Both the position numbers and the translations under genes were made by a program. Of a DNA stretch of 64,000 bases, positions 37,019 to 62,147 are shown one piece after another; positions within the stretch are counted from its first letter, which is position 1; the number at the start of each line of letters is the position of its first letter. The notes under the pieces are model-generated. The model did not search any database and had not been told where the DNA came from. It worked only from the letters and a program-made list of their open reading frames with translations. This stretch comes from Amoebidium appalachense (Eukaryota; Protista; Ichthyosporea), in contig CAVNZM010000017.1 in NCBI GenBank assembly GCA_963693365.1, forward strand, positions 907,989-971,988, given 5' to 3'.

Positions 37019-40000
37019 ATGCGTGCGCTTCTGCTTTGGGCGGGCGCAGCGTGCCTGCTTCTCGGCTGGGAGGCCGACGCCGCGTACACAGTTCCTTCCA
37101 TTCTCGGTGCGTCAATATGTGTATGTTATAATATGTCCTGTAAATTTGATGCACTTGCTGACCCAGATTTCTTTGTTTTATTCTTCTCCTGTGGTTCGTT
37201 GCTTGTTGTTATCCATCGACGTTAAACTTTGTGTGTTTCCACCAAGAGCGAAAAAGAGGAAGATTAAATAGACAGCGCAACGTAACATGAGTAAAAGTGC
37301 TGTTGTTTATTCGTGCCTGGCGGCGGACAGAAAAACCCAAATTTGGAAATACAAAAAATGGAACAGAATGGGAAGGGGGCAAGGATCCGATAAGAGAAGA
37401 ATTCAAGAAGAAAACTAGCTAGAGACAGAGAGAGGGAAAATGAATGGCATGGTGCATTTATCAAGTTTTGATAGACTAAATGCGCTGTTTACCTACCCTG
37501 AACAGTTGAGACCCCAAGAATGTAATAGAAACATTTTCGGTATATTAGTTAGTGGTGAAGAGCTGAATGTATGCCCATGCAGTTTTTTACTCTGCTTGTT
37601 TTCTTTCTTTTTTTTTTTCTTTTCTTTTCTTTCTTTCTTTCTTTTTGTGATATTAGATTTACAGCGTTTGAGCTTGAGTGCACTTTATACACGGAATTGG
37701 TTTGTACCTTACCTCTCTCTCCCCTCCCCCCTCCCCCCCTCCCTCCCCCTGCCATTCGCAAAAAGAAAGGGAAAAAACTCGGTGAAAGGAGAAAACACAC
37801 ACACACAACGTGAGCAGTACACAAATACACTGGGGCATTATTATTTTTATTTTTTAAAAAAAGAAAAAAGGATTTGGGACCACATTCCCCGTGCTCTGAC
37901 ACACAACGTGAACAGTACACAAAATACGCTGGGGCAATATTATTATATTATTATTATTTTTAAAAAAGGATTTGGGACCACATTTCCCGTGCTCTGAAGC
38001 AGAGATATATCCATAGGGAAGTGACTAATCCCGCGCTTTCCGACGTGCCCTATGAAAATAAATAGGATCGGTTTGACTTTAAGGCTAGTATAACGAAAAC
38101 AATTTGGCGTATCAAGTCATTTGCTCCTCACACATCGAGGAGATGTATACACATATTATATTGGAAAAAAAGAAATGAGAAGGAATGATAAGAACGAAAA
38201 CGACCGAGAAATTTTTAAAACAAAAGCAGAATGATAAAGAGAATTAACTTGAAAAATAAAACGAGTATCTGATTGGTTGTGGTCCAAAACAGGCATGCGG
38301 GTGAGGATAGACCACAGGTGCGGCCCCAGATACCTCGCAGCTGACGGGAAGCCTGCCTGGTGCAACCCCTTGTGAGTGGCGTTTTTCTTTTCCTTTCCCC
38401 CCCCCCCCCCCCCCCCCCCCCTGTTTTTCTTTTCGTTTCTTTCTTTCTGTCTTTCTCTCAGACGAGAAGGCTGCATGGTGCAACACTATAAGGGTCCCCC
38501 CCCCCCCCCCCCCCCCCCCCCCCGGAGGCTTTTTTCAATTTCTCCTTTCTTTTTCTTTCCGAAAAGTTTCTTCATTAGTATTTTTTTTCTTCTTTTATTT
38601 CTTTCGGTCCCCCCCCCCCCCCTCTCTCTCCCCCCCCCCCCCTTTTTTTTTGGGGGGGGGGGTGAGGGGAGGGGAATCGGGGGTGTACGCTTGGTCGCGC
38701 ACTTTTGTGTACTTGTGCGCACGAGCTTCCCTCTCTCTCTCTCGTCTCTCTCTCTCTCTCTGTGCATGTGTGTGTGTGTGTGCACGTGTGTGTGTGTGTG
38801 TGTGTGTGTGTGTGTGTGTCTGTGTTTGTGTGTGTGTTTGTGTGTGTGCGTGTATGTGTGTGTGCGCGCTTGCGCCTAAGTTTCTAATCCTGACTGTGTA
38901 CCAATGGTGAGAGAGAGAGAGAGAGAGAAAACACTATCGAAAAACCTGCCTGTGCACGTGTATGATATCGGATTGGCTCGGACACACCCTCGTGCGTGCA
39001 AATGTGTTTTATAGTGCGCCTCTTCTAATACGTACTGTTTTTCTTGTTCTTGTTGTGTTTTTTTTGATATGCACATGCTTCAAGATTATACAAATAGTGT
39101 TTTCTTCACATGTGAACGTATGTACAAAAACATTATAGCCCATTCCCCCCCCCCCCTCCCCCCTCCCTACCCCCCTCCCCCCAGCCTCTCCCTCCCTCCC
39201 CAACTATCAAACGGCCATTTCTTTGGTGTGTGCATCACATTTCGACTACCTTCACAACCACAAATACGATTTGCAAATCGTTTCTGAAACCAGTGCTATA
39301 TTTAGCACCACATACTGGTGTTCTTTAACTGACGTTAAAGGAGCACAGGAACCCCACCCGTTGCTGCGGCAGCCCTGAGGGGGTATGCATCCCGGCCAGC
39401 ATGTGCACAAGGGTTGGGTCGGTGAGCTACTGCAACGACCCTCTAGGTATGGTTATAAAAATTTAATCAGAGTTATATTTTAAAGTTTGGTTCTAAGTTT
39501 TGGGGTGCTGTTCTCAATATGGAAACAAAGAGAGCTTTAATTCCCCCCCCCCCCCCCCCCCCCCCCCCCCCCCTCTCTCTCCCAGCACACACACACACCA
39601 CACACACACACTGGACCACACACCCCAAAACCCTTCAACCATTATCAGAATCCACTTGAGCCGCAAACAATTTTTTTGGGTTACTCTCGCAAACACACTC
39701 GCACACACATTTGTAAGCCCATCACATACTCAAGGTCAATTGGCAGGCCCCTTTGCCCAAAGAAACATGTTTTAATTTTTTGAATATGAAATCACCAAAA
39801 CCAGTGAACAGACTAAAAAAATATAATTACAGGTTGTGGCCGCCCACCCAACTTCTATTGTTATCTCCACGGTGTTCATAAAATTGAACTATAAATCTTT
39901 TAACTGACACTAAAATCTAAAATCATTACAGGTTGTAGCCGCCCACCCAACTTCTATTGTTATCTCCACGGTGTTCATAATATTGAACTATAAAATATTT

Positions 40001-61000: not shown

Positions 61001-62147
61001 GTCTCCCGCGTCGGCACAAGCGCCACCTTCCGCACCGTCATGGCCGTTGGGAAAGGCACCCCACCCACTGCTACCATTTTAGGAAATAAGGTTACTATAA
61101 ATGGTATCACATACGACACGGACAATCTCTCAAACACGTGGCCTGCACGTGGTTTGTACACTTCCCAGGGGTGGTTGTATTACGTCATCACGAGTGACCC
61201 CCCGGGAGCCGCTGTGTGTGAGGGCTATGGTATGAGCCTGGTGGAGGTGACGGCGGCAAATATGCAAGCAGTGATCGGTAGGTGGTTTTGTTTTGGTCCC
61301 CCCCCCCCTCCCCCCCCCCCCCCCCCCCCCCTTTTTTTTCTTTTTTTTTTGGGGTGGGGTGTGTGGGGGGGGGGGGGGGGGGGGGGGGGGGGGGGGGGGG
61401 GGGGGGGGTTGTTTGTATGTTTACGTGTTCGAGGAAGGCGGGCAGGAGGATCAGCTTCTGTTTTTTTTTTTTTTTTTTTTTTTTTTTTTTTTTTGCTTTG
61501 TGTGTGTGCATGTGGGGGGGGGGGGGGGGGGGGGGGGGGGGGTGATGATGATTCTGGGGGAGAGAGTGTGTACATGTGTGTGTGTGTGGGGGGGGGGGGG
61601 GGGGGGGGGGGTTGATAGGTAGGTAGGATAGTTAAGTTGCATCTCACTAAGTTCACTACTGCTGTTGGCGGCTGTAGGTTTTTTTTTTTTTAACATCAAT
61701 CGGGTTGCACAAGATGACATTAGGGGAGAGGGGGACGGGGGGGGGGGGGGGGGGGGGGGGGAGGGGAAGAGAGAGAGAGAGAGAAGGGGGGGGGGGGGGG
61801 GGGATTGTCATTGATGCTTGCACGACGAGTGTAATTGTGCCTTATCCAACCATCAACCCTCCCTTCCCCCCTCCTCCCTCCCCCCTCCCTCCTTATGCAC
61901 ACACACGCACACACAAACACACACACAAACACGTATACACACACACACACACACGCAAACACACACACACACACACACACGTACAGGCACGATCATCCAG
62001 CTGGGCAAGCAGGCATGGATGACGTATGCAAAGGGCTGCTGCAGCACGTGCACGGGGCCATCAGCGCATATGATTGGTGGAGACGGCAGTCTGCAGTACG
62101 TAGACTCACCAACAACCACAAATGTCGGTGTCTTATGCAAGCTTTAA
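37019..62147 (+). CDS. Large secreted multi-exon protein: signal peptide, 23 Cys-rich module exons, heparinase II/III-like lyase, C-type-lectin-like domain
   Basis: Exon 1 37019-37106 ([21 protein letters not shown]); tentative small exons 38318-38371, 38462-~38492, ~38881-38906, 39349-39446. Module exons 40031-40168, 40980-41108, 41407-41557, 42283-42426, 43366-43506, 44229-44387, 45118-45267, 45851-45991, 46444-46590, 46922-47059, 47495-47620, 47817-47942, nine tandem exons within 48428-52072, 52571-52714, 53157-53300. Enzyme and C-terminal exons 54532-55130, 56223-56315, 57055-57266, 58567-58813, 59307-59531, 59878-60482, 61000-61277, 61987-62147. GT-AG with continuous frame except one probable extra C at ~41485. 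Confidence 0.8.
47817..47942 (+). CDS. Calcium-binding EGF domain exon
   Basis: [42 protein letters not shown] fits the cbEGF consensus; phase 1-1. Confidence 0.92.
48395..52072 (+). repeat. Tandem array of 9 exon+intron units (132-bp exon; period 397-500 bp)
   Basis: Exon starts at 48428, 48839, 49300, 49731, 50154, 50589, 51044, 51544 and 51941; each has an ACTAA(T/A) branch point, a CCATCAG acceptor and a (GT)n donor. Confidence 0.95.
54532..61140 (+). CDS. Heparinase II/III-like (alpha/alpha toroid + beta-sandwich) polysaccharide-lyase-like region
   Basis: [61 protein letters not shown] and WDWQLS, recognised from memory as resembling bacterial heparinase II/III-family proteins; no search was run. 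Confidence 0.65.
55766..56000 (-). mobile_element. 3'-end fragment of a LINE related to the 6614-18886 element, in an intron
   Basis: TTTTATTTTATC.CGTTTT.TTCC.GGAGG, AACTACCGTCT.CCACACAGCACCGAC.GTAC, TTAAGGTGCTA and TACACACTT.GCCCAGGG are shared with 6614-6810. Confidence 0.85.
61150..62147 (+). CDS. C-terminal C-type-lectin-like domain (two exons)
   Basis: [19 protein letters not shown]...AWM...GVLCKL* resembles the CTLD A-x2-C-x3-G-x2-L-V pattern, with a central W and a terminal C. Confidence 0.45.

What the first reader, a model, noticed from the sequence alone, without database searches (positions are those of the whole stretch)
37019..62147. Exon-modular secreted protein: variable Cys-rich stalk fused to a bacterial-type polysaccharide lyase and a lectin-like tip
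Seen: a signal peptide, then 23 exons that each encode one ~42-53-aa Cys-rich (typically six-Cys) module, all phase 1-1, spliced in frame to a ~600-aa region with HPRI / YLxTGD / YDW / NWxAV / EGxxYxxYG / FxRNRxQD motifs and a CTLD-like end. Established: these motifs typify bacterial heparinase II/III-like lyases, and symmetric phase-1 exons can be skipped or duplicated without frameshift. Inference: a horizontally acquired glycan-degrading enzyme that gained introns and was grafted onto a length-variable eukaryotic stalk, possibly for host or substrate attachment and digestion. I know of no described protein with this architecture.
Basis: partly seen in the sequence, partly recalled or inferred. 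Interest (0 to 1): 0.8.

Follow-up and report, generated by a model that had tools for sequence, protein, structure and literature searches.

The report
Bacterial lyase domain on cysteine-repeat array
A protist gene, likely from an animal-related ichthyosporean, splices a long array of cysteine-rich repeats onto a sugar-lyase-shaped domain likely taken from actinobacteria, and the predicted secreted protein would cut, or merely grip, acidic polysaccharides.

Summary
One spliced RNA contig joins the last two modules to four enzyme exons. The enzyme part is 38-42% identical to its best actinobacterial matches, all uncharacterised. It nests among them in the tree (98/97), and its codon use matches the host. 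A homolog's model has the toroid plus beta-sheet lyase fold, closest to PL35 (Z 28), so this is no named heparinase family. The catalytic Asn and Tyr are kept. The His-base loop has no His in this protein, so binding without cutting is a serious rival. In 12 of 35 actinobacterial loci the homolog sits near another lyase. Bdelloid rotifers acquired the same family separately (p-AU 0.01). The C-type lectin tip and exon skipping are unsupported, and no membrane anchor was found. Verdict: a new variant of a known kind (gene transfer plus exon shuffling), built on an uncharacterised lyase-fold family.

The parts
37019..37106 (+). Exon 1: start codon and predicted signal peptide
   Evidence: Sequence: hydrophobic N-terminus, GT donor in phase 1. 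No signal-peptide predictor was run.
38293..39446 (+). Exons 2-3 (38293-38371, 39349-39446): hevein-like module lacking the two chitin-binding tryptophans
   Evidence: Exon 2 hits the N-terminal domain of amphioxus PGRP3 (4z8i, E 0.015; 2 hits among 177,635 sequences). Cys at 39, 53, 61, 62, 69, 75 against 27, 41, 49, 50, 56, 63 in PMC4610682. Splicing inferred from phases.
40031..47620 (+). Exons 4-14: eleven divergent six-Cys modules, phase 1-1; 41407-41557 is frameshifted as assembled
   Evidence: No significant Pfam, PDB-sequence or fold match.
47817..47942 (+). Exon 15: calcium-binding EGF domain
   Evidence: Pfam EGF_CA 3.8e-10 and EGF_3 2.5e-10, both above cut-off.
48428..52072 (+). Exons 16-24: recent tandem run of nine exon-intron units, seven nearly identical
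   Evidence: 131-132 of 132 nt identity and 100 of 100 in the upstream intron end; microsatellite lengths differ per unit.
52571..53300 (+). Exons 25-26 (52571-52714, 53157-53300): last two Cys modules
   Evidence: Spliced to each other and to exon 27 in record 8 of run X2.
54532..55130 (+). Exon 27: bacterial-type linker and start of the alpha/alpha toroid (HPR motif)
   Evidence: Profile of bacterial homologs aligns from about residue 105 of the partial translation; RNA contig.
56223..58813 (+). Exons 28-30 (56223-56315, 57055-57266, 58567-58813): toroid with the neutralising Asn (codon 57136-57138) and catalytic Tyr (codon 58604-58606)
   Evidence: RNA contig. Asn and Tyr each 43 of 43 in the near clade; they map to Asn187 and Tyr241 of 8KHW.
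59307..60482 (+). Exons 31-32 (59307-59531, 59878-60482): end of toroid and beta-sheet domain; the loop that carries the His base in PL35 has Val (59923-59925) and Trp (59932-59934) and no His
   Evidence: 0.98 of 59 sampled words of 59860-60483 are held by two runs. Junctions inferred from phase and homology.
61000..61140 (+). 5' half of exon 33: end of the bacterial-type domain
   Evidence: Homology ends at about residue 805, the C-terminus of the bacterial proteins.
61141..62147 (+). 3' half of exon 33 (to 61277) and exon 34 (61987-62147): about 97-aa tip with five Cys, family unassigned; stop codon
   Evidence: No Pfam or significant PDB hit for either half. No hydrophobic C-terminus.

Best explanation
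The gene splices an array of eukaryotic six-cysteine modules onto a lyase-fold domain likely acquired from Actinomycetota, and the predicted secreted protein likely cleaves a uronic-acid-containing polysaccharide outside the cell. Proposed mechanism (inferred): the conserved Asn neutralises the uronate carboxyl and the conserved Tyr does the acid-base work of beta-elimination without the usual His. The disulfide-bonded array would act as a long spacer holding the enzyme out from the cell wall or attachment matrix. The likeliest substrate is bacterial exopolysaccharide or host surface glycan met by an arthropod-associated ichthyosporean. Shown: exon structure, the spliced junction, homology, tree position, kept and lost residues. 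Inferred: secretion, the fold of this very protein (modelled on a 38%-identical homolog), activity, substrate, lineage and anchoring.
For: Spliced contig across array and enzyme. 38-42% identity over 550-640 aa to the best actinobacterial matches, E to 1e-131. Homolog model pLDDT 93.6; VIA Z 28.1, rmsd 3.1, 507 aligned to PL35 GAGase II, followed by PL39, PL17, PL21 and PL15 (Foldseek 7e-21). Asn and Tyr kept; 92 of 108 near-clade-conserved columns kept. Neighbours in 35 actinobacterial loci: PL8 lyase 8, PF14099 lyase 5, Hepar_II_III protein 3 (12 loci with at least one), GH29 fucosidase 10, ABC permease 18, LacI/DeoR-type regulator 22 (the label comes from one representative per cluster). 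In the same fold a Tyr is proposed as the base in dermatan sulfate epimerase 1 (PMC8006597, passages). GC3 0.56 equals the window's kinase and differs from 0.93 in a Streptomyces homolog.
Against: His-to-Ala variants of PL35 GAGases lost all activity (PMC12088678, passages), and this protein has no His in that loop; its relatives keep one three residues before the Trp in 38 of 43. A second near-clade residue, Asn in 39 of 43, is Ala here. No GH88 or GH105 unsaturated-glucuronyl hydrolase appeared among 151 cluster representatives scanned, of 304 clusters. The carbohydrate neighbours are mostly Streptomyces and not independent. I found no assayed member of this family. No anchor was found, and the hevein-like module lacks the chitin-binding Trp residues. 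The lineage rests on one kinase hit at 56% identity.
Confidence: 0.45

Rival explanations
1. Pseudoenzyme adhesin: after transfer the domain lost its catalytic His and now only binds an acidic polysaccharide, so the whole protein would be an attachment or matrix protein.
For: His to Val at a site that is His in 38 of 43 near relatives, a new Trp beside it, and Asn to Ala at a site conserved in 39 of 43. Long end branch, 1.15 against a median of 0.34. Fusion to EGF, hevein-like and Cys-repeat modules, typical of adhesive proteins (own knowledge). Amoebidium appalachense was isolated from arthropod cuticle (PMC11244446, passage).
Against: Asn, Tyr, the Glu-Gly motif, Arg360, Glu363, Gln460 and Lys596 are all kept. 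Five of 43 near-clade sequences, including intact-looking P0001, also lack that His.
Confidence: 0.35
2. Polymer-level epimerase or wall-remodelling enzyme acting on the organism's own glycans, a parallel to animal dermatan sulfate epimerase, which has the same fold.
For: 6hzn matches at Z 23.8, rmsd 3.9, 561 aligned; epimerase and lyase share the first step (PMC8006597, passages).
Against: The family's near-invariant Ser-Asn-Trp has no His where related enzymes carry one before the Asn. The bacterial homologs sit in uptake-type loci. The protein has no Golgi-type anchor.
Confidence: 0.08
3. Only the 3' end of the array belongs to the enzyme transcript; the upstream exons are a separate or broken gene.
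For: Record 8 runs through intron sequence 52400-52570 instead of splicing to exon 24. Exon 6 is frameshifted as assembled. No RNA was laid on exons 1-24.
Against: Record 1 of run X1 enters exactly at the 52569-52571 acceptor with 98 letters from outside the laid stretch, as splicing from an upstream exon would give. No in-frame ATG lies between the intronic stop and the exon. All phases are compatible, and the frameshift is in a homopolymer run.
Confidence: 0.09
4. Bacterial contamination in the assembly, or a vertically inherited eukaryotic family.
For: Rotifers also have the family. Hits below the best 150 of 14,590 were not seen.
Against: Six introns within the domain, three of them bridged by an RNA contig; host-like GC3; monophyly with rotifers rejected, p-AU 0.0099.
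Confidence: 0.03

Closest known systems
PL35 glycosaminoglycan lyases (GAGase II 8KHV, GAGase VII 8KHW, chondroitinase 9O3Q)
   Same: Toroid plus antiparallel beta-sheet fold (Z 27-28); Asn and Tyr of the catalytic triplet align (PMC12088678).
   Different: About 15-16% identity; the His-x-His-x-Asp motif is replaced by Trp-x-x-x-Glu/Asp; no Pfam DUF4962 or Hepar_II_III hit; fused here to eukaryotic modules.
Heparinase II (PL21) and alginate lyases PL15, PL17, PL39
   Same: Same fold, Z 22-26; profile hits 1e-10 to 1e-7 over the N-terminal helices.
   Different: More distant than PL35; NCBIfam HepB 16.5 bits against a cut-off of 600 for homolog P0008.
Uncharacterised actinobacterial proteins (for example Streptomyces formicae P0008, Catellatospora P0033)
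   Same: Direct relatives, up to 42% identity over the linker and catalytic core.
   Different: Most carry a CBM-like and an FN3-like N-terminus (4d0q 1.7e-6, 3mpc 8e-4), some discoidin domains; here those are replaced by the Cys array, and the loop His is lost.
Human dermatan sulfate epimerase 1
   Same: An animal protein with this bacterial lyase fold, for which gene transfer is discussed (PMC8006597, passages); Z 23.8.
   Different: 11% identity, unrelated branch, Golgi enzyme, no repeat array.
Amphioxus BbtPGRP3 (hevein-like domain fused to an amidase)
   Same: Similar hevein-like module in front of a glycan-cleaving enzyme (PMC4610682).
   Different: Here the equivalents of Trp53 and Trp55 and the fourth disulfide are missing, 23 modules intervene, and the enzyme is unrelated.

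Membership tests
Toroid plus beta-sheet polysaccharide lyase superfamily (PL12/15/17/21/33/35/39) | [quoted passage not shown] | tested here: met
   Model of a 38%-identical homolog, Z 28.1, rmsd 3.1, 507 aligned. The window protein itself was not folded.
PL35 | Neutralising Asn (Asn187 of 8KHW) | tested here: met
   Ser-Asn-Trp aligns to Asn-Asn-Trp; codon 57136-57138.
PL35 | Catalytic Tyr (Tyr241 of 8KHW) | tested here: met
   EGWEY aligns to EGYSY; codon 58604-58606.
PL35 | Catalytic His base in the beta-domain loop (His397 of 8KHW) | tested here: not met
   In a sub-threshold segment His397 aligns to the family Trp (140 of 146); the 8KHV alignment puts its His two columns earlier. In either register the window protein has no His in this loop.
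PL35 | CAZy or dbCAN family profile | not testable with these tools
   No CAZy library on hand.
Heparinase II/III-like (Pfam PF07940, PF16332) | Profile score above cut-off | tested here: not met
   No hit at E up to 1 for the enzyme exons or for full-length P0001 and P0002. The Atlas gives such clusters as look-alikes at 0.96, a lead only.
Any polysaccharide lyase | Beta-elimination activity on a uronic-acid polymer | not testable with these tools
   Needs an assay.
C-type lectin-like domain | Profile or fold match of the C-terminal tip | tested here: inconclusive
   No hit for either exon half; the joined tip was not searched or folded. No EPN, QPD or WND motif in the translation (motifs recalled).
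Hevein-like chitin-binding domain | Cys spacing of the disulfide core | tested here: inconclusive
   Six of eight Cys match BbtPGRP3 spacing within one residue; E 0.015 only; no Pfam hit for the halves.
Hevein-like chitin-binding domain | Aromatic chitin-binding residues (Trp53, Trp55 of BbtPGRP3) | tested here: not met
   No aromatic residue between the Cys-Cys pair and the next Cys.
Calcium-binding EGF | Pfam EGF_CA above cut-off | tested here: met
   Exon 47817-47942 only, 40.3 bits against 27. None of 14 aligned array modules reached a cut-off.

The most novel reading that the evidence does not exclude
An undescribed polysaccharide-lyase family, with Trp where known members have the catalytic His, entered animals (bdelloid rotifers) and their unicellular relatives twice from Actinomycetota. 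In the ichthyosporean it was rebuilt by exon shuffling into a holdfast or surface protein on an unclassified six-cysteine repeat array that is still expanding by tandem exon duplication, and it either cuts by a His-free mechanism or has become a glycan-binding adhesin.
Probability: 0.3. Interest if true: 0.72.

Novelty: new variant of a known kind. Interest (0 to 1): 0.52.

Why it matters
Bacterial carbohydrate enzymes moving into eukaryotes and picking up introns and host modules is a known pattern. This case adds three testable things: an unassayed lyase-fold family whose active-site loop departs from PL35, giving a candidate new enzyme family and substrate; two independent eukaryotic acquisitions of it; and a concrete candidate for how an arthropod-associated ichthyosporean attaches to or feeds on surface polysaccharide. 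A search for Amoebidium with polysaccharide lyase found 0 papers.

Tried and rejected
No whole genome is held, so paralogs elsewhere could not be counted. No run is on record as RNA; the RNA reading rests on the spliced pieces, and the three runs are one sample and one study. RNA was laid only on 52400-58850, so exons 1-24 and 31-34 have no junction evidence. A candidate mini-exon at 55962-56013 was rejected because the contig joins 55130 to 56223. The alternative acceptor 59860 was set aside because 59878 aligns without a gap. The stalk module gave a model of pLDDT 84.8, pTM 0.55, with no fold match: 0 of 48,161 chains at Z 2 or more, and best Foldseek E 2.9; the Atlas best score was 0.77. 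None of this shows a new fold. The profile comparison with neighbouring Hepar_II_III proteins covered only the toroid (probability 88) and did not settle the His register. Viral contigs: 0 of 18 candidates. Metagenome contigs: 1 of 72, a 71% GC locus that looks bacterial. My first lineage guess, Paratrimastix, was dropped. Paper searches gave listings, none on this protein by title or abstract start; searches gave none. Four look-ups in earlier findings were empty. The careful tree used 45 of 146 catalytic regions, chosen by hand; fragments covering under 380 profile positions were dropped.
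Full report
Observation. The region is an intron-rich eukaryotic gene on the + strand. Of the 23, 21 have six Cys, one has seven, and one (41407-41557) is one base too long in a C run, most simply a homopolymer error (inferred). Without that exon the frame is open for 1,900 aa. A six-Cys exon pattern finds 20 distinct exons here and none in three control regions. One module is a calcium-binding EGF domain. The others form one family (seven invariant columns in 14 aligned) with no significant Pfam, PDB or fold match. 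Seven tandem units match at 131-132 of 132 nt and differ in intron microsatellite length, which points to recent duplication. Skipping was not observed.

Transcript. In one search, record 8 of run X2 (3,584 nt, no mismatches or gaps) lies in six pieces on exons 25-30. The 6-8 letters between pieces equal the exon ends that the tool skipped, so the five junctions are 52714/53157, 53300/54532, 55130/56223, 56315/57055 and 57266/58567. This refutes separate transcripts at the array-enzyme boundary. A second contig (X1 record 1) enters at the exon 25 acceptor with 98 outside letters, as upstream splicing would give.

The enzyme part. It matches uncharacterised actinobacterial proteins at 38-42% over 550-640 aa for the best hits. 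A profile aligns from just after the last Cys module to the bacterial C-terminus (4e-190), so the transferred piece is the linker plus the catalytic core. Pfam and NCBIfam give no hit above cut-off. A model of homolog P0001 (82 sequences, pLDDT 93.6) matches PL35 lyases best (Z 28.1, rmsd 3.1, 507 aligned), then PL39, PL17, dermatan sulfate epimerase, PL21 and PL15. From passages of PMC12088678 the PL35 triplet is Asn187, Tyr241 and His397, each essential. The Asn and Tyr map to codons 57136 and 58604 and are invariant in 43 near relatives. The His motif is replaced family-wide by Trp-x-x-x-Glu/Asp (Trp in 140 of 146). Most relatives have a His three residues earlier (38 of 43 near, 93 of 146 overall), which may be the substitute base; this protein has Val there and no His in the loop. 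The register rests on weak alignments, but the absence of His does not. Passages of PMC8006597 propose Tyr261 as the base in the same fold; that Tyr-only lyases exist in PL5 and PL8 is recalled, not checked.

Origin. All 35 closest genome loci are Actinomycetota; the other 40 of 75 are cyanobacteria, Verrucomicrobiota, Bacteroidota and others. In a 45-row IQ-TREE tree the window protein lies in a clade of 27 (98/97) whose named members are actinobacterial; its exact sister is unresolved and its branch is long. Six introns interrupt the domain, and GC3 is 0.56, as in the window's kinase, against 0.93 in a Streptomyces homolog. Rotaria sordida encodes a homolog, and unnamed P0177 is 75% identical to it. 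A clade of these with the window protein is rejected (p-AU 0.0099; the group was named before the careful tree but after a quick one). Only the best 150 of 14,590 hits were visible, and 27 of them were looked up by name, so other eukaryotic holders are not excluded.

Substrate clues. In 35 actinobacterial loci, neighbours include a PL8 lyase (8), a PF14099 lyase (5), a Hepar_II_III protein (3), GH29 fucosidase (10), a GH16-like protein (5), an ABC permease (18) and a LacI/DeoR-type regulator (22). This fits a uronic-acid, possibly fucosylated, polysaccharide. It comes mostly from related Streptomyces, no background rate was computed, and no GH88 or GH105 was seen among 151 of 304 clusters scanned.

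Ends of the protein. Exon 2 hits the hevein-like domain of amphioxus PGRP3 (E 0.015) and six Cys match its spacing, but the two chitin-binding Trp described in PMC4610682 (passages) are absent. The tip has five Cys and no family match in either half. No transmembrane or GPI-type end was found by hydropathy.

Organism. The kinase at 2423-3373 has one hit at E 1e-30 or better among 1,794 candidates, an Amoebidium parasiticum protein at 56% identity, so the lineage is likely ichthyosporean. Passages of PMC11244446 describe Amoebidium as intron-rich parasites or commensals isolated from arthropod cuticle; PMC6492006 (passages) reports chitin in ichthyosporean walls.

Verdict. A real chimeric gene. 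An active, His-free lyase on an extracellular spacer (0.45) is only slightly ahead of a binding-only adhesin (0.35). The kind of event is known; the family, the architecture and the repeated acquisition were not found in the ten paper searches made, of which five papers were read as passages and the rest seen only as listings.

Noticed in passing
window 22200-31842, - strand: A divergently transcribed gene with an apparent signal peptide, a Thr-rich stretch and several Cys-rich exons (for example 24207-24070, 26370-26185, about 23075-22960); one scores weakly against the array profile (E 0.0012). It suggests a local family of secreted Cys-array proteins.
   Followed up: partly
window about 9790-16100, - strand: A copia-like LTR element (direct repeats near 9800-10500 and 15440-16100; gag, integrase and reverse-transcriptase-like frames read by eye) inserted into a LINE-like element spanning about 7000-18900. 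Labels are from reading the sequence, not from a call.
   Followed up: no
window 2423-3373, - strand: Intronless Ser/Thr kinase ORF; nearest hit an Amoebidium parasiticum protein at 56% identity.
   Followed up: partly
window 55200-55330 and 57440-57820: Intronic repeats with very high depth in the laid runs (8,000-15,000 against about 85 for the gene's contig); similar stretches occur in other introns near 40750, 43230 and 44050. Likely a dispersed repeat.
   Followed up: no
window 52527-52690: A short out-of-frame ORF with a hydrophobic start overlaps the exon 25 acceptor, in the intron part retained by contig record 8; it stops before the enzyme.
   Followed up: partly
window 28340-29900: An A-rich tandem repeat of about 57-nt units in an intron of the neighbouring gene, read by eye.
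   Followed up: no
P0044, P0175, P0176 (Rotaria sordida) and P0177: The rotifer homologs keep what looks like the bacterial CBM-like N-terminus and the loop His; the named Rotaria ones end in a hydrophobic segment, so the same family was given a different display mode there.
   Followed up: partly
L001-L010, L017, L019, L026, L028, L063: A recurring Streptomyces sugar-utilisation locus around the homolog (regulator, ABC permeases, a 558-aa unassigned protein, GH29, PL8, 2-hydroxyacid dehydrogenase, several unassigned genes) with no substrate known to me.
   Followed up: partly
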